Source: Octopus vulgaris (taxonomy: Eukaryota). Taken from it: 64,000 nucleotides of DNA. The notes under the pieces are model-generated. The model did not search any database. It worked only from the letters and a program-made list of their open reading frames with translations, and was not told the origin of the DNA. The translations under genes and the position numbers were made by a program. The number at the start of each line of letters is the position of its first letter. Within the stretch, counting starts at the first letter, position 1. Of this stretch, positions 7,880 through 61,696 are shown one piece after another. Location of the stretch: the NCBI GenBank assembly GCA_951406725.2, contig OX597821.1:77066001-77130000 (forward strand), in the 5' to 3' direction.

Positions 7880-8289
7880 TACTCTTTACTCTTTTACTCT
7901 TTTACTTGTTTCAGTCAATTGACTGCGGCCATGCTGGAGCACCGCCTTTAGTCGAGCAAATCGACTCCGGGACTTATTCTTTGTAAACCCAGTACTTATT
8001 CTATCGATCTCTTTTGCCGAACCGGTAAGTGACGGGGACGTAAACACACCAGCATCGGTTGTCAAGCAATGCTAGGGGGACAAACACAAACACATACACA
8101 CACACATATATATATATATAAATATATACGACAGGCTTCTTTCAGTTTCCGTCTACCAAATCCACTCACAAGGCATTGGTCGGCCCGGGGCTATAGCAGA
8201 AGACACTTGCCCAAGATGCCACGCAGTGGGACTGAACCCGGAACCATGTGGTTGGTTAGCAAGCTACTTACCACACAGCCACTCCTGCG

Positions 8290-8291
<2 letters not shown>
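7880..8291 (-). mobile_element. SINE S1, full length
   Basis: complete tRNA-like head to (GTAAAAGA)n tail, both ends in (TA)n. Confidence 0.9.
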
Positions 8292-8381
<90 letters not shown>

Positions 8382-16040: not shown

Positions 16041-16091
16041 ACAGTTCTATATTTAAGAGATGAGGAATTATGTACATTATTTACATTCGAC

Positions 16092-16173
<82 letters not shown>

Positions 16174-16499
16174 AAGAAGAAGAAGAAGAAGAAGAAGAAG
16201 AAGAAGAAGAAGAAGGAGGAGGAGGAGGAGGAGGAGAAGGAGGAGGAGAAGAAGAAGAAGAAGAAGAAGAAGAAGAAGAAGAAGAAGAAGAAGAAGAAGA
16301 AGAAGAAGAAGAAGAAGAAGAAGAAGAAGAAGAAGAAGAAGAAGAAGAAGAAGAAGGTCAAAAAATACCTAGGGAATGAGAAACCAGCCTCGAAATTTCT
16401 CCAAGACACCTGAAGAAGGCTGAAGGGTATATCAGCTGAAACGTTGTTTTAACAACAAACAAGATGAGGACAAATATCTGTCGAATGTAAATAATGTCA
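16041..16499 (+). mobile_element. hammerhead element family B, inverted-arm insertion
   Basis: inverted tail (16042-16092) + (AAT)n(AAG)n + HHR module; TSD TCAGTTTT at 16033-16040 and 16500-16507. Confidence 0.8.
16406..16449 (+). ncRNA. minimal type I hammerhead (family B)
   Basis: ACAC-CTGAAGA-AGGCTGA-agggtata-TCAGCT-GAAAC-GTT-GTTT. Confidence 0.75.
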
Positions 16500-27160: not shown

Positions 27161-27338
27161 TAGAGAATCTAGTCGTATAAAACAGATGGGGTTGTCACGG
27201 TTAGAAAGTTTTTGCTCATGAGCTGTTCACCACAACTAGCCTGGGGATAGACAACAGCTCCACGAGAGTATAAACATACATACATACATACATACACACA
27301 CACACATACATACATACATACATACATACATACATACA

Positions 27339-27369
<31 letters not shown>

Positions 27370-27599
27370 TTGTTTACTACCCACAAGGGACTAAACATAG
27401 TGTGGACAAACAGGGACAGACAAACGCATTAAGTCGATTACATCGACTCCTGTGCATAACTGGTACCTAATTTATCGACCCCGAAAGGATGAAAGGCAAA
27501 GTCGACCTCGGCGGAATTTGAACTCAGAACCTAACGGCAGACGAAATATGGCTACGCATTTCGCCCGGCGTGCTAACATTTCTGCCAGCTCCCCGCCTT
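27370..27599 (-). mobile_element. SINE S2 monomer
   Basis: reverse-complement head, body and tail A. Confidence 0.85.
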
Positions 27600-35589: not shown

Positions 35590-36175
35590 GTCTTTCTACT
35601 CTAGCCAGAAGGCCCGAAATTTTGAGAGAGGGGGCCAGTCAATGAGATCTACCCTAGTACGCAACTGGTATTCAATTTATCGACCCCGAAAGGATGAATG
35701 GCAAAGTCGACCTCGGTGGAAATTGAACTCAGAACGTAAAGACAGACGAAATACCTATTTCTTTACTACCCACAAGGGGCTGAACATAGAGGAGACAAAC
35801 AAGGACAGACAAACTGATTAAGTCGATTATATCGACCCCAGTGCGTAACTGGTACTTATTTAATCGACCCCGAAAGGACGAAAGGCAAAGTCGACCTCGG
35901 CGGAATTTGAACTCAGAACGTAGCGGCAGACGGAATACCTATTTCTTTACTACCCACAAGGGGCTAAATACAGAGAGGACAAACAAGTACAGACAAACGG
36001 ATTAAGTCGATTATATCGACCCCAGTGTGTACCTGGTACTTATTTAATCGATCCTGAAAGGATGAAAGGCAAAGTCGACCTCGGCGGAATTTGAACTCAG
36101 AACGTAGCAGCAGCCGAAATACCGCTAAGCATTTCGCCCGGCGTGCTAACGTTTCTGCCAGCTCCCACCGCCTTA
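35590..36175 (-). mobile_element. SINE S2 internal trimer
   Basis: one head followed by three bodies of about 180 bp (tail A, tail A, tail B). Confidence 0.9.
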
Positions 36176-37152: not shown

Positions 37153-38100
37153 CGTACATGGAATAATTTACGGTGATCAGTTACCATGTTCCGTGTCTAA
37201 AACAGTCTCCACCAACTTACTCTACGCAATATTGTTGACCAGCAAATCAATTTGGAGCGAATCCATTAGTTTTACGATTGATTCTCTTTGACTCTTCAAC
37301 TAATTCTTCCATGACACCACTCTACTTAAGCACTTCTCTTCTTAATGTCTCCTTAATGGACGATTAGGTAAGTGTTTCGAAATACGTGTTATACTTTCTT
37401 TTTATTGAAAGTTTTACGCGAGGAGAACAAACGCATAACTTCTTTATTAACGGAATCCAACGGTTCTTATATCCATCGGTGGAAAAGCAAAACTGAATCT
37501 GTCCACTACAAACAGAACCATGGAATTTCAATTAAAATAGGAACTGTTGCATGAACGGCATGTGGGCTTACAGGAGATGTTTCCCTCAAATACGGAGATT
37601 ACTAAGAAAGAAATGGAAGAGAAAAACAATCCTTTCTGTGTTGAGTGTGGGGAGTGAAGTTTTTTACGTATCATTGGAAACAGGTGTTTCGTCGGTTTGG
37701 AAGAAGAGCACAAAATAAGAGCTAATTCAAATCACGTGTGAAGACAACTTTGAAGTCTCCACTCATCCACTTCAGCCAATGTATTTCTTCACCGTGAATA
37801 GAAAATAAAGTGAGGGCTCCGATTTTAAATGTATTTTCGTTTTATTTTGTTTTATTTCGTTTTTATCGTGCAAGAAACTTCGGGGAGTGAAAACGGTAAA
37901 ATAATGTTTTAGGTTTTTTTTTCCTTTATTAGTGTGTACAAGGAGTCGGGGCTTCGTTGCTGTTTACAGCTGGTTTTGGTTCTTTTAAAAGGCTTCGAAA
38001 AATATTTTTATTCTCTTTGAATTGTGTTGATCAGCGTTTTATTGATATCTGTCGCATTAAAATTGCAGTTTGTCTTTTCATTTTTTTAAAAATATATATA

Positions 38101-38512
38101 CGCGCAGGAGTGGCTGTGTGGTAAGTAGCTTGCTTCCTAACCACATGGTTCCGGGTTCATTCCCACTGCGTGGCACCTTGGGAAAGTGTCTTCTACAATA
38201 GCCTCGGGCCAACCAAAGCCTTGTGAGTGGATTTGGTAGACGGAAACTGAAAGAAGCCCGTCGTATATATGTATATATATATGTATGTGTGTATATGTTT
38301 GTGTGTCTGTGTTCGTCCGCCCAACATCGCTTGACAACCGATGGTTGTGTGTTTACGTCCTCGTAACTTAGCGGTTCGGTAAAAGAGACCGATAGAATAA
38401 GTACTAGGCTTACAAAGAATAAGTCCTTGGGTCGATTTGCTCGACTAAAGGCGATGCTCCAACATGGCTGCAGTCAAATGACTGAAACAAGTAAAAGAGT
38501 AAAGAGTAAAGA
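38101..38512 (+). mobile_element. SINE S1, full length
   Basis: complete head to tail. Confidence 0.9.
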
Positions 38513-38734: not shown

Positions 38735-39345
38735 CAAATTTTGGCACAAGAACATCATTTACGGGGGAGGAAGTAAGTTGATTACATCCATCCACAGTAC
38801 ACAACTGGCACTTATTTTATGGACCCATAAAGGATGAAAGGCAAAGTCGACCCGGCGGCGTTTGAACTCAGAATGTAAAATCGGAAGAAACGCCACGAAA
38901 ACTTTTTTCGACATGGTAACGATTCTTATTTCTTTATTACCCACAAGGGGCTAAACATAGAGGGAACTAACAAGGACAGACAAACGGATTAAGTCGATTA
39001 CATCGACTTCAGTGCGTAACTGGTACTTAATTTATCGACCCCCGAAAGGATGAAAGGCAAAGTCAACCCCGGCGGAATTTGAACTCAGAACGTAACAGCA
39101 GACGAAATACCTATTTCTTCACTGCCCACAAGGGGCTACTCACAGAGGGGACAAACAAGGACAGACAAACGGATTAAGTTGATTATATCGACCCTAGTGC
39201 GTAACTGGTACTTAATTTATCGACCCTGAAAGGATGAAAGGCAAAGTCGACCTCGACGGAATTTGAACTCAGAATGTAGCGGCAGGCGAACTACCGCTAA
39301 GTATTTTGCCCGGCGTGCTAACGATTCTGCCAGCTCGCTGCCTTA
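38735..39345 (-). mobile_element. SINE S2 multimer plus an adjacent older S2 copy
   Basis: repeated GAAAGGATGAAAGGCAAAGTCGACC bodies; single head at about 39345. Confidence 0.8.
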
Positions 39346-39945
39346 AAGTCAGGAGAAATATCGCAAGGCATTTTCTGCAACGCTCTAACGACTCTGAAAT
39401 CTATGCGAAAGAGTTAATCGATTAAGTCAGCCCTAGTACTTAACTGTTGACCATTGCTGGATTTGAACTCAGAACGCAAAATCCCGGAAGAAATATCACA
39501 AGGCTTCGATTATTCTAGCAATCCACTCACTTCAACCATTCCAGCGATTTTTAGGGCAAGTGGTTAATGGATACCACTGACCCTGGCACTTGTCGGGTAC
39601 TTTATATTATTAACCCCATAAGGATCAAAGGCAAATTTGATTTCAACGGGATCAATTTTTGTTTCGTGTTCAGTCCCACTGTCCGGCATCATGGCCTGGT
39701 GTCTTCTACAATAGTTCCCAGGCCGTAAAGTGCCGGAAATAAATAACGCAAAACATGACTTTAGCAACGCTTTTATGATTCTGTCAGCTTTTCGCATTAA
39801 ACAGCTTCCGATCATAATGATTAAACATGCAAATCATCATTTGGTTCTCGCCGATCATCGTGCATATGACGATTTATCAGCCTTATTTACATAATTTACA
39901 CTATTTACATTTGATGGATATTTGTCCTCATCTTGTTTGTTGTTA

Positions 39946-39989
39946 ACACAACGTTTCGGCTGATATACCCTCCAGCCTTCATCAGATGT
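39946..39989 (-). ncRNA. minimal type I hammerhead (family B)
   Basis: minus ACAT-CTGATGA-AGGCTGG-agggtata-TCAGCC-GAAAC-GTT-GTGT. Confidence 0.85.
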
Positions 39990-40099
39990 CTTGGGGAAAT
40001 TTCGAACCTGGGTTCTCATTCCTAATGTATTTTTCGATGTTGTTGTTGTTGTTGTTTTTATTATTATTATTAATATTATTATTATTATTATTATTATTA

Positions 40100-40180
40100 T
40101 TCAAGTCACTGCCTAGAATCGAACTCGAAATCTTGGGGTTAGTAGCCCGCACTCTTAACCAGTACGCCATATGCCCGTGG
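40100..40180 (-). promoter_or_regulatory. tRNA-derived head with Pol III A/B boxes
   Basis: minus GGGCATA-TGGCGTACTGG-TTAAGAGTGCGGG-CTACTAA-CCCCAAGATTTC-GAGTTCGATTCT-AGGCAGTGAC. Confidence 0.75.
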
Positions 40181-40271
40181 GAATATAGCGTAGTGGTGAT
40201 CTGAATAATAATGATAATAATAATAACAATGATAATAATAATAATAATGATAATAATAATAATAATAATAA

Positions 40272-40302
<31 letters not shown>

Positions 40303-40426
40303 AAGAAGAAGAAGAAGAAGAAGAAGAAGAAGAAGAAGAAGAAGAAGAAGAAGAAGAAGAAGAAGAAGAAGAAGAAGAAGAAGAAGAAGAAGAAGAAGAA
40401 GAATGATGATGATGATGATGATGATG

Positions 40427-40480
<54 letters not shown>

Positions 40481-40483
<3 letters not shown>

Positions 40484-41010
40484 GCCTTGATGCAGTACCA
40501 GACAGTGCCTCTCGTGGCTTCTGATCTTAACTCATTGGAAGTGTTATCATGTACATTGTTTTGTCTTGGTATAAAAGATGGGCTACATAAAATAGTCTGC
40601 TCAATACCAGATTTGCCTATCAATTGTTTGACCGTAACCAGTTGAGCATGTCCTTTAGTGGCTGACAATATGTGCACCTCTGATCAGGAGCAGAAGTAGT
40701 GGGGGAGCATCATAGCCGTGTGTTGGAGGTTCGGATAATTCACCTTTGTTTCGTTCAACATCCTTAAACAATCCTTATTCAGGGACCTTTTGAGCGGGAT
40801 GGGCTACCCGACCAGAAGAAAATTCTAACTGGGCCCCACCTGCAAGGTCATGTGCTGTTTATCTTGATATGAGATCACCGTGTCACGCACATATGGTTGT
40901 GATACATGTGTCTGGTGTACCCTTATCAGACGGGTTGTCATGATGGATATACTGGGCTTCGTATATTTTTCGCCAGTATCACTTTGATGGCATGCACTAC
41001 TCTCTCACTC
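40481..41010 (+). mobile_element. 530-bp non-coding repeat (cargo S5) embedded in (AAT)n
   Basis: starts AATGCC, ends CTCTC..ACTC; homologous copy with the same ends at 42715-43255 on the minus strand. Confidence 0.8.
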
Positions 41011-41084
<74 letters not shown>

Positions 41085-41161
41085 TGATGATGATGATGAT
41101 GATAATAATAATATCGAAAAGTACCTTAGAAATGAGAACCCAGGTTCGAAATATCCCCAAG

Positions 41162-41205
41162 ACACCTGATGAAGACTGGAGGGTATATCAGCCGAAACGT
41201 TGTAT
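41162..41205 (+). ncRNA. minimal type I hammerhead (family B)
   Basis: ACAC-CTGATGA-AGACTGG-agggtata-TCAGCC-GAAAC-GTT-GTAT. Confidence 0.8.
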
Positions 41206-41398
41206 TAACAACAAACAAAATGAGAACAAATATCCGTCAAATGTAAATAATGTAAATAATGTACATAATTTCACATCTCTTAAATATAGAACTGGATTTA
41301 TCAGCCGTTTCGAGATATCAGCATGCATCAGCAATCAGTTTGTTTGTTGAAGTTATAAACAAGAACTTCTAACATAGATGTTTAAACCTGAGATACCT

Positions 41399-42104: not shown

Positions 42105-42456
42105 TAACAAAGTGTAATTTTGATCTCGTCTCTGGATTATGAGTCTAACACGCAGTTCCTGCACCCCGCTTTCATTTTTCTTTTTTCGGGGGTGAAAAGC
42201 AGTACCCATGGCCCTTTTGTGTTTTCAGGATCAACGAAGCAAGCAGGGAAAAATGAGGAAGTTATATTCGGACAAGAGATATGTCTAAATGCTTGCAAAA
42301 GAGATATCGTCACCATCATCATCATCGTCATCATCATCTACAACAACAATAGCTCCTAGACATTACTGTCTTGATGCAGTTCTATATTTAAGAGATGAGG
42401 AATTATGTACATTATTTACACTTGAAGGATATTTGTCCTCATCTTGTTTGTTGTTA

Positions 42457-42500
42457 ACACAACGTTTCGGCTGATATACCCCCCAACCTTCATCAGGTGT
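42457..42500 (-). ncRNA. minimal type I hammerhead (family B)
   Basis: minus ACAC-CTGATGA-AGGTTGG-ggggtata-TCAGCC-GAAAC-GTT-GTGT. Confidence 0.85.
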
Positions 42501-42557
42501 CTTGGGGAAATTTCGAACCTGGGTTCTCATTCCTAGGGTATTTTTTGATGTTGTTGC

Positions 42558-42669
<112 letters not shown>

Positions 42670-42714
42670 ACTGCTACTGTTGCTGCTGCTACTACTACTA
42701 CTACTACTACTACT

Positions 42715-43407
<693 letters not shown>

Positions 43408-43482
43408 AACAACAAACAAGACGAGGTCAAATATCTGTCAAATGTAAATAATGTAAATAATTACTGTCTTGAGTTTTAGGTG

Positions 43483-54516: not shown

Positions 54517-55187
54517 ATGTGTGTATGTGTGTGTATATCGTCGAACATAAAAAGAATTTAAATAAAAATTATTAATCATAAAGTTATTTGAAAATAAGTG
54601 ACACGAACCTGAAAGCTTCTCCTTCCAAAAGGTTCGTGTCGTTCTGTTTTTACAAGATTTTAATTTTTATTTTGTCAATGATAATTATTGTAAGAATATC
54701 TTTATTTAAATATTGTGACTGTATCAAGAAAGTTTTATAAAAAAACTTTTTTTTAAAACACACGCACAAATATATACAACAAATTGTTTGTTTATTAAAA
54801 TTATCTGCGTCTATGGAGGATGTGTCATGGCTCCAGATGAGCAGGGAAGATGATATCAAAAATCAAGAATTTTCTTCAAAGTTGAGATGCCGTCAATGAA
54901 AAGGACAAACTAATGGTATGAAGATAACGAGGACAGTATTGCATACGTGTTTCTGGTTCAATACTCGTCACCATCAGGAGAATTGTTTTGACATTACCTC
55001 CAATAACCAGGGGACTTGTTGTTGTTGGTTGTTATTTCTCGAGCCATGCTTGGCTCATGAAGCCCAGTTTCCCGGTTTCATTGACGTATAGGTCCCCCAC
55101 CTGAATGTGACGTCGGTCCGTCGCAGGTGAGCTGCTAGATGCAGGTGGAAAGATTGAGAGAAAGTTGTGGCGAAAGAGTTAGCAGAA

Positions 55188-55331
55188 CATTATTTACATT
55201 ATTTACAATTGACGGATATTTGTCCTCATTTTGTTTGTTGTTAACACGCCATATGCCCGTAGGCATATGGCGTAGTGGTTAAGAGCGCGGGCTACTAACC
55301 TCAAGATTCCGAGTTCGATTCCAGGCATTGA

Positions 55332-55386
<55 letters not shown>

Positions 55387-55593
55387 TATAAATATAATAA
55401 TAATAATAACATCGAAAAATACCTTAGGAATGAGAACCTAGGTTCGAAATTTCCCCCAAGACACATGATGAAGGCTGGAGGGTATATCAGCCGAAAGGAT
55501 GTGTTAACAACAAACAAGATGAGGACAAATATCCGTCAATTGCAAATAAGGAAAATAATATACATAAGTCCTCATCTCTTAAATATAGAACAA
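55188..55593 (+). mobile_element. hammerhead element family B, complete unit (tRNA head-(AAT)n-HHR-tail) with a short inverted arm
   Basis: inverted 3' arm 55188-55247, head 55262-55335, (AAT)n, mutated HHR 55461-55504, tail to 55591; TSD AGT(T/C)AGCAGAA at 55177-55187 and 55594-55604. Confidence 0.88.
55262..55335 (+). promoter_or_regulatory. tRNA-derived head with Pol III A box (TGGCGTAGTGG) and B box (GAGTTCGATTCC)
   Basis: canonical box spacing, anticodon-arm-like GGG-CTACTAA-CC; acceptor stem not paired. Confidence 0.8.
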
Positions 55594-61309: not shown

Positions 61310-61696
61310 TTTCCTACTCTTGGCACGAGGCCCGAAATTTTGGGAGAAGGGGGCCAGTCAGTTAGATCGACCCCAATATACAATTTATAGACCTCCGAAA
61401 GGATGAAAGGCAAAGTCGACTGAGGCGGAACTTGAACTCAGAACGTAAAGATAGGCGAAATACCTATTTCTTTATTACCCACAAGGGGCTAAACACAGAG
61501 GGGACAAACAAGGACAGACATAGGTATTAAGTCGATTACATCGACCCCAGTACGTAACTGGTACTTAATTTATCGACCCCGAAAGGATGAAAGGCAAAGT
61601 CGACCTCGGCGGAATTTGAACTCACAACGTAACGCAGACGAAATACCGCTAAGCATTTCGCCCGGCGTGCTAACGTTTCTGCCAGCTCGCCGCCTT
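61310..61696 (-). mobile_element. SINE S2 internal dimer
   Basis: TSD ATAGTTATAGTC(A/G)ATATTC at 61291-61309 and 61697-61715. Confidence 0.9.

What the first reader, a model, noticed from the sequence alone, without database searches (positions are those of the whole stretch)
39871..41306. Family B integrates as unequal inverted arms between a TSD, the PLE integration signature
Seen: a 1.4-kb insertion bounded by a perfect 12-bp TSD (GATTTATCAGCC). The left arm (minus) ends at the AATGTAAAT repeats, while the right arm (plus) runs about 35 nt further to ...TAAATATAGAACT. The two arms have different 5' parts (tRNA head versus 530-bp cargo). The same short-arm/long-arm geometry holds at all four family-B loci. 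Known: PLE insertions often carry an inverted pLTR copy with a short tail extension. Inference: one integration event copied two templates or two parts of a multimeric RNA, priming from both target strands.
Basis: partly seen in the sequence, partly recalled or inferred. Interest (0 to 1): 0.75.

Follow-up and report, generated by a model that had tools for sequence, protein, structure and literature searches.

The report
Back-to-back Penelope retrotransposon insertion
This is one copy of a common Penelope-type jumping gene lying as two back-to-back arms between a 12-base duplicated target, a layout already in print; in 59 of 62 sampled pairs one arm has the long end and the other the short end, and many arms begin at a built-in tRNA-like sequence that likely acts as a promoter.

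Summary
In detail: perfect 12-bp TSD, head-to-head arms, one short and one tailed end, at all four window loci. Family B is the pseudo-LTR of an abundant Penelope/Poseidon-type element (RT + C-terminal GIY-YIG ORF, minimal hammerhead; the arm encodes the ORF N-terminus). Inverted pLTR + 30-40 nt tail + TSD is the published PLE layout, so the headline is not new. Measured here: of 97 sampled loci 62 are head-to-head pairs; 59 of 62 are long+short (at most 50% if ends were chosen independently); 39 of 62 have a TSD (0-4 in permutations); partner arms share subfamily alleles (39 of 39); neither arm is a copy of the other. One reading is corrected: the arms do not have different 5' parts. The tRNA-like sequence is a fixed part of the element, both focal arms start in it, and the 530-bp 'cargo' is a separate (AAT)n-associated repeat, likely nested later. 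40 of 55 arms reaching the tRNA-like start stop there, suggesting short Pol III templates (untested). No empty site was found. This scan noted the tRNA-promoter reading before on another piece of this genome (e1-8669850).

The parts
39871..39882 (+). left copy of the 12-bp target site duplication
39883..40038 (-). short-ended pLTR arm, 3' end outward, ending in the AATGTAAAT repeats
40039..40101 (-). (AAT)n/(AAC)n linker of the left arm
40102..40183 (-). tRNA-like segment of the left arm (A-box- and B-box-like motifs, recalled consensus; ARAGORN calls no tRNA)
40172..40183 (.). central junction at the near-palindrome that opens the tRNA-like segment; shared by both arms
40179..40203 (+). tRNA-like head of the right arm with a 50-nt internal deletion
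40204..40480 (+). expanded (AAT)/(AAG)/(ATG) microsatellite, right arm linker
40481..41010 (+). 530-bp 'cargo': independent non-coding repeat found in (AAT)n tracts, likely nested after the PLE insertion
41011..41112 (+). (AAT)n/(ATG)n linker, right arm
41113..41294 (+). long-ended pLTR arm; from the ATG at 41132 it encodes the N-terminus of the PLE ORF
41161..41206 (+). minimal type I hammerhead-like motif (helix I GACAC/GTGTT in most copies, CTGANGA, helix II, GAA-ACGT-T); read by eye, no Rfam hit
   Evidence: negative: 39, 57
41260..41294 (+). 'tail' present only on the long arm; N-terminal coding sequence of the ORF
41295..41306 (+). right copy of the 12-bp target site duplication
16042..16497 (.). 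second family-B locus: long arm left (minus), short arm right; 8-bp TSD
42377..43461 (.). third locus: long arm left, cargo repeat inside its linker, short arm right; 13-bp TSD
55187..55591 (.). fourth locus: short arm left, tRNA-like head and long arm right; 11-bp TSD with one mismatch

Best explanation
The locus is a pair of head-to-head pseudo-LTR arms of a Penelope/Poseidon-type retrotransposon between a 12-bp target duplication, likely made in one event in which both nicked target strands primed reverse transcription on RNA from one source element. Shown: element anatomy (ORF, stop, about 30 nt, tRNA-like segment, (AAT)n, pLTR with hammerhead-like motif reading on into the ORF), TSDs of mostly 10-15 bp, one long and one short end per pair, shared alleles, arms abutting in the middle. 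Inferred: the GIY-YIG endonuclease cuts the two strands about 12 nt apart in AT-rich DNA; one 3' end starts at the tail end, the other about 33-35 nt upstream inside the AATGTAAAT repeats; the two starts are coupled, most simply by a dimeric RNP holding two RNA units of the same source (about 50% for this sub-step); the two cDNAs are joined at their free 3' ends, here at the palindrome that opens the tRNA-like segment. Inferred: many templates were short RNAs beginning at the tRNA-like segment (Pol III type). Inferred: the 530-bp repeat inserted later into the right arm's (AAT)n tract.
For: PLE machinery: RT with YVDD followed by a CCHH/GIY-YIG-type domain directly upstream of the tRNA-like segment and arm; 599 relatives at E<=1e-20 with RVT_1, two of the listed 120 also with Pfam GIY-YIG; endonuclease fragment 39% identical to the GIY-YIG region of P0062, E 2e-20; arm peptide resembles the N-terminus of the intact 847-aa P0010 (by eye). 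Geometry: 59 of 62 pairs long+short, binomial p 9e-15 against 0.5; 8 of 8 scorable pairs among 20 separately chosen read-through loci. TSD 39 of 62 against 0-4. Allele sharing: 39 of 39 at arm position 58 (permutation mean 26.3), 41 of 44 at 127, 39 of 40 at 129. Short arm reaches further 5' in 29 of 52 simple pairs, long arm in 17, tie 6, so neither is a copy of the other. L198 has the same private junction on both sides. 5' ends: of 89 arms linked to a tRNA-like segment 34 stop inside it, 40 at -8..+3 (5 of these scored by eye as fold-backs), 3 in the UTR, 12 run into the ORF. Cargo: 0 of 19 hits in 60 evenly spaced 10-kb tiles linked to an arm; linked copies not clustered on a tree, 118 of 500 shuffles as low.
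Against: No empty site was recovered: the focal right junction is bridged in organisms B and C, and no orthologous flank was seen in organism E. 23 of 62 pairs have no TSD by my rule, 3 of 62 are not long+short, 30 of 97 loci show one arm only and 1 is tail-to-tail. Overall identity of partner arms (0.916) is not above that of shuffled partners (0.914, p 0.17), and position 35 (a CpG) is not concordant. Allele sharing shows one subfamily, not one molecule. Partner arms often differ in the number of 9-nt units. In vitro, Poseidon_Ac showed no strand difference in start site (PMC11167929), so coupling is not yet shown biochemically. The hammerhead fold is not the minimum-energy structure and has no Rfam hit. 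L098 and L113 join cargo to an arm or flank without (AAT)n on one side, so some cargo may have been carried by the PLE. No RNA evidence was obtained.
Confidence: 0.82

Rival explanations
1. Fold-back self-priming: one cDNA folds back at the central palindrome and copies itself, giving the second arm (a model of this kind was proposed for Adineta Penelope, on an antisense template).
For: Palindromic central junctions occur (focal locus, window 55246-55279, L071, L144, L152); partner arms share alleles; PMC3846280 discussion argues for self-priming.
Against: A self-copy of the long arm cannot reach further 5' than its template, yet the short arm does so in 29 of 52 pairs, several by hundreds of ORF bases (L087, L137, L146, L159). 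A self-copy of the short arm cannot supply the tail. An antisense multimeric RNA version is not excluded.
Confidence: 0.08
2. Two independent insertions, the second homing into or beside the first, happen to face each other.
For: PAc cleaves its own ORF-pLTR junction in vitro (PMC11167929); complex three-arm loci exist.
Against: One TSD brackets both arms in 39 of 62 pairs; 39 of 39 allele concordance; 61 head-to-head style against 1 tail-to-tail; strict long+short pairing.
Confidence: 0.03
3. One RNA molecule is copied twice from two start sites about 35 nt apart (leading and trailing RT on the same template), rather than two RNA units.
For: Would explain both the coupling and the allele sharing; the short arm more often reaches further 5' (29 against 17).
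Against: 29:17 is a weak bias; it needs strand displacement of the first cDNA; unit number differs between partners. This is a variant of the best explanation, not an alternative to it.
Confidence: 0.3
4. The pile-up of 5' ends at the tRNA-like start is RT stalling or end joining at the TGCCC/GGGCA palindrome on long Pol II transcripts, with no Pol III promoter.
For: The peak coincides with the palindrome; 34 of 89 arms also stop inside the tRNA-like segment; ARAGORN and Rfam see no tRNA; single-copy TTTT depletion of the ORF is not significant (P(0) 0.09-0.17).
Against: Only a 5-bp hairpin; 40 of 55 arms stop within 12 nt and only 3 in the next 55 nt; no TTTT run is shared by most ORF copies (14 runs in 38.6 kb) and none in three tRNA-like-to-tail stretches.
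Confidence: 0.35
5. The 530-bp segment was part of the template and was carried in by the PLE.
For: 8 cargo hits (7 loci) lie directly 5' of an arm in the same orientation, two of four window loci among them; L098 and L113 have non-microsatellite joins.
Against: Free copies dominate, most flanked by (AAT)n on the same strand and truncated at the far end; linked copies are not a cluster; LINE fragments sit in the same tract in L121 and L171; the focal right arm has its own tRNA-like head upstream of the cargo.
Confidence: 0.15

Closest known systems
Poseidon_Ac (PAc) of Anolis carolinensis, Penelope/Poseidon clade (PMC11167929; parts 1-2 of 4 read)
   Same: Single ORF, RT then GIY-YIG; pLTR overlaps the ORF start and holds a hammerhead; two RT start sites inside the ORF, the gap between them being the 30-40 nt tail; AT-rich targets; both strands extended in vitro; predicted dimer. 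An 836-aa Anolis protein (P0108, not verified to be PAc) is 39% identical to the RT fragment.
   Different: In vitro start sites showed no strand difference, while pairs here are 95% long+short; no tRNA-like segment is mentioned in the parts read; starts here lie about 125-140 and 163 nt after the presumed ATG rather than 111-118.
Adineta vaga Pen2a/Pen2/Pen3a (PMC3846280; passages and Discussion read)
   Same: Inverted pLTRs, 8-10 bp TSD, 31-bp optional tail encoding ORF residues, palindromes at the inverted junction.
   Different: Few copies; TATA/Inr promoter proposed; self-priming on an antisense template proposed, which its simple form does not fit here.
Naiad/Chlamys PLEs (PMC8557442; passages read)
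   Same: 5'-truncated inverted copy and 30-40 bp tail at one end; high copy number in invertebrates.
   Different: Naiads have an N-terminal endonuclease and lack canonical hammerheads; here the endonuclease is C-terminal.
Minimal PLE hammerheads (PMC4209133; passages read)
   Same: Short helix I, longer helix II with an unpaired base before it, palindromic positions 15.2-16.2, no helix III.
   Different: Activity not tested here.
L1 twin priming
   Same: Second nicked strand primes on RNA, giving a 5' inversion inside one TSD.
   Different: In L1 the inverted part is an upstream, non-duplicated segment; here both arms carry the same pLTR.
Dong elements targeting TAA microsatellites (PMC3812793; passages read)
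   Same: The cargo and the LINE fragments in L121/L171 sit strand-specifically in (AAT)n tracts.
   Different: The cargo has no ORF and no shared 3' end with those fragments was seen; the Dong/R4 label for the fragments rests on recalled motifs plus a zf-RVT hit.

Membership tests
EN+ Penelope-like element (Penelope/Poseidon type) | Single ORF with RT followed by C-terminal GIY-YIG endonuclease | tested here: met
   Seen in broken copies and through relatives; no intact copy was found in G000
EN+ Penelope-like element (Penelope/Poseidon type) | pLTR overlapping the ORF start, in direct partial tandems and inverted copies | tested here: met
   116 read-through matches genome-wide; tandem and inverted arms in the 20 loci mapped
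EN+ Penelope-like element (Penelope/Poseidon type) | 30-40 nt tail at one end | tested here: met
EN+ Penelope-like element (Penelope/Poseidon type) | Short TSD | tested here: met
   39 of 62, mostly 10-15 bp
EN+ Penelope-like element (Penelope/Poseidon type) | Hammerhead motif in the pLTR | tested here: inconclusive
   Core and helices present by eye and 92-100% kept across arms; no Rfam hit, not the MFE fold; cleavage untested
EN+ Penelope-like element (Penelope/Poseidon type) | Phylogenetic placement in the Penelope/Poseidon clade | not tested
   No tree with named references was built; the label rests on domain order and similarity
Naiad/Chlamys | N-terminal endonuclease | tested here: not met
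   Endonuclease follows the RT
tRNA-derived SINE | tRNA-like head with A and B boxes at the 5' end of most copies | tested here: inconclusive
   Box-like motifs by recalled consensus; 40 of 55 arms stop at its start; ARAGORN negative
tRNA-derived SINE | Separate non-autonomous element | tested here: not met
   The segment is part of the ORF-bearing element
tRNA-derived SINE | Pol III transcription | not testable with these tools
   No RNA holder listed, contigs only
Non-LTR retrozyme | Tandem 170-400 nt non-coding repeats with canonical type I hammerhead (PMC7229834, passages read) | tested here: not met
   Inverted pairs, ORF-derived, minimal motif

The most novel reading that the evidence does not exclude
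A Penelope element that carries its own tRNA-derived Pol III promoter, making short SINE-like RNAs (and possibly the whole TTTT-free ORF transcript), which a dimeric RNP integrates by obligately asymmetric twin priming: one protomer always starts at the tail end, the other about 35 nt upstream, and the two cDNAs anneal through the palindrome at the RNA 5' end. This would give a rule for the long-unexplained inverted-pLTR-plus-tail layout that can be tested in the existing in vitro system.
Probability: 0.35. Interest if true: 0.68.

Novelty: new variant of a known kind. Interest (0 to 1): 0.42.

Why it matters
The layout is textbook PLE, but how it arises is still called undefined in PMC8557442. 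The counts here constrain it: ends are paired long+short far above the 50% ceiling of independent choice, both arms come from one subfamily, and neither arm is a copy of the other. That gives a direct prediction for the PAc in vitro assay. The built-in tRNA-like segment would, if it is a promoter, link PLEs to SINE-type amplification. For annotation: such loci will be mis-split into a SINE, a microsatellite and an unknown repeat.

Tried and rejected
Rfam on the window and on the locus: only microsatellite-driven or chance hits. ARAGORN: none. RNAfold does not give the hammerhead or a cloverleaf; z-scores -0.8 to +1.2. Pfam on short broken fragments: only a weak RVT_1 hit. Empty site: the focal right junction is bridged by contigs of organisms B and C; organism D covers the flank only; organism E gave no usable flank at the focal locus or at L072, and no joint skipping the insertion was among those shown (lists were cut). 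No RNA holder listed. Priming microhomology: observed means 1.33 (long) and 1.78 (short) exceed permutations (0.49, 0.78; 36 loci, L096 and L120 dropped), but TSD calling adds chance matches on both sides of the boundary, roughly doubling the null, so I treat it as inconclusive. Overall within-pair identity: not above background. Extra 9-nt units on short arms (12 of 15 informative pairs carry A where the partner has C): equally explained by unit number being hypervariable; not claimed as telomerase-like repeat addition. TTTT depletion per single copy: not significant. The protein Atlas was unavailable. Literature searches found no paper on a tRNA-like segment in a pLTR or on long/short pairing counts; the library lacks most subscription journals and Repbase/Dfam were not searchable; supplements (for example Fig. 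S2 of PMC11167929) were not opened and may bear on this.

Full report
Observation. The 12-mer GATTTATCAGCC occurs twice in the window, at 39871 and 41295. Between the copies lie a minus-strand arm (39883-40038) and a plus-strand arm (41113-41294), 91.7% alike, 3' ends outward. The three other window loci have the same long/short layout with TSDs of 8, 13 and 11 bp. The window lies in a 2.8-Gb genome, G000; its repeats look octopus-like from recall, which I did not establish.

What family B is. Locus L004 and 11 further loci show RT (YVDD) and a C-terminal cysteine/histidine endonuclease domain, a stop codon, about 30 nt, a tRNA-like segment and, in most, (AAT)n and the arm. The arm reads on into the ORF N-terminus (L182; 116 matches genome-wide at one mismatch), and its peptide resembles by eye the start of an intact 847-aa relative, P0010. 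The RT fragment has 599 relatives at E<=1e-20; the endonuclease fragment aligns to the Pfam GIY-YIG region of P0062. A minimal hammerhead-like motif is in the arm (features as in PMC4209133, passages read), without Rfam or folding support. So the arm is a pLTR and the tail is N-terminal coding sequence, as described for Poseidon_Ac (PMC11167929, parts 1-2 of 4), Adineta Pen2a (PMC3846280, passages and Discussion) and PLEs generally (PMC8557442, passages). Exact 32-mer and 29-mer matches number 2305 and 3864; 5 loci in 60 evenly spaced 10-kb tiles suggest roughly 20,000 loci, a loose estimate. Arms are about 4% from the majority base (median 0.042), so the burst is old.

Sample. 97 loci: 5 from the tiles, 88 around the first exact matches on contig C1 (94 of the 100 listed matches were fetched; L074 and L091 dropped as duplicates; this set favours well-kept arms; flanks 1.5 or 3 kb), and 4 from the window. 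62 are head-to-head pairs with both outer ends reaching arm position 125 or more; 30 show one arm; 3 are pairs with a clipped end (L059, L076, L139), 1 is tail-to-tail (L090), 1 is a split single arm (L095); one further pair cut by a locus edge was left out. Among the single-arm loci that I could see, L079, L167 and L168 carry a tiny inverted remnant of the other end type, two of them with a TSD, so 62 is a lower bound.

Geometry. 59 of 62 pairs are long+short, 2 short+short, 1 long+long; independent choice of start site allows at most 50% (p 9e-15). Eight of eight scorable pairs among 20 read-through loci agree. TSD score >=8 in 39 of 62 against 0-4 in permutations; lengths 8-15, mode 12-13, one microsatellite artefact of 26; TSDs are 76% A+T. 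Long ends fall within a few bases of ...GAACTG; short ends scatter through the 9-nt repeats, mostly about 33-35 nt from the tail end counted from the last unit. Contigs from four organisms show the same two classes of end as major loose ends.

One source, two primings. Partner arms agree at subfamily sites: 39 of 39, 41 of 44, 39 of 40; a CpG site does not (21 of 32) and overall identity is not raised. In 52 simple pairs the short arm reaches further 5' in 29, the long arm in 17, 6 tie, so neither arm is a fold-back copy of the other. Central junctions are overlaps of 2-20 nt in 17, blunt or 1 nt in 11, gaps of 2-20 in 11, other (microsatellite, nested inserts) in 13 of 52; no null was computed for these. 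L198 has one private junction on both sides, which points to a multimeric source. I infer that both nicked strands primed on RNA of one source and that the two cDNAs were end-joined. Whether one RNA is copied twice or two units are held by a dimer is open; the predicted PAc dimer and dimer-dependent hammerheads make the second plausible. Microhomology at the outer ends is inconclusive (see Tried and rejected).

The tRNA-like segment belongs to the element, and the focal right arm starts with its own head, lacking 50 internal bases, at the palindrome shared with the left arm. The 530-bp repeat is independent: 19 hits in the tiles, none linked to an arm, most with (AAT)n on the same strand and truncated at the far end; the 6 linked copies among 16 on a tree do not cluster, though the tree has no strongly supported branch. 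LINE fragments occupy the same tract in L121 and L171; TAA-targeting Dong elements are known (PMC3812793, passages). L098 and L113 leave room for occasional PLE-borne cargo.

The tRNA-like start. Of 89 arms linked to the segment, 34 stop inside it, 40 at -8..+3 (35 direct, 5 fold-backs reassigned by eye), 3 in the UTR and 12 continue into the ORF. No TTTT run is shared by most ORF copies (at most 3 of 21-23; 14 runs in 38.6 kb against 515 AAAA runs), but per copy this is not significant. Short Pol III templates are the simplest reading; stalling or joining at the palindrome is the rival. No RNA data were available.

Empty site. Not obtained: the focal junction is bridged in organisms B and C, and organism E gave no orthologous flank at two loci.

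Verdict. A real, single PLE insertion with the published inverted-pLTR-plus-tail layout and a later nested repeat. The added value is the near-obligate long+short pairing and the tRNA-like 5' start, neither found in my searches (open-access library only). Other papers seen: PMC13282606, PMC10886601, PMC7229834 (passages). Interest 0.42.

Noticed in passing
window 40481-41010 and 42715-43255; L046, L131, L172 and others: A 530-560 bp non-coding repeat with a defined start, many copies truncated at that end, found strand-specifically in (AAT)n tracts; possibly a non-autonomous partner of a TAA-targeting LINE. More frequent than family B in the tiles.
   Followed up: partly
L121:1830-2772, L171:3290-4190, also L077 and L193 upstream of the arm: 3' fragments of a LINE with CCHC zinc finger and restriction-like endonuclease motifs (R4/Dong-like, label recalled) nested in family-B (AAT)n tracts.
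   Followed up: partly
L198, L189, L192, L195, L203, L207: Mini-tandems in which the arm runs 35-150 nt into the ORF and then jumps to a tRNA-like head or another arm; suggests template jumps or deleted source elements.
   Followed up: partly
short ends of L082, L089, L125, L138, L152, L164 and the focal locus: Short arm has one more AATGTAAAT unit than its long partner despite shared point alleles; slippage at initiation or later.
   Followed up: partly
L152 central junction: Filler reading as telomere-like repeat (TAACCCTAACC) between the two arms.
   Followed up: no
L090:1432-1920: The only tail-to-tail pair (two long ends facing inward) among 97 loci.
   Followed up: no
ORF copies L102-L112, L173-L187: Sense strand almost free of TTTT runs over about 2.3 kb, compatible with Pol III read-through of the whole element.
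   Followed up: partly
window 27295-27591, 35684-36164, 39040-39336, 61393-61689, 7893-8346, 38080-38503: Other dispersed SINE-like families and very dense microsatellites in the window.
   Followed up: no
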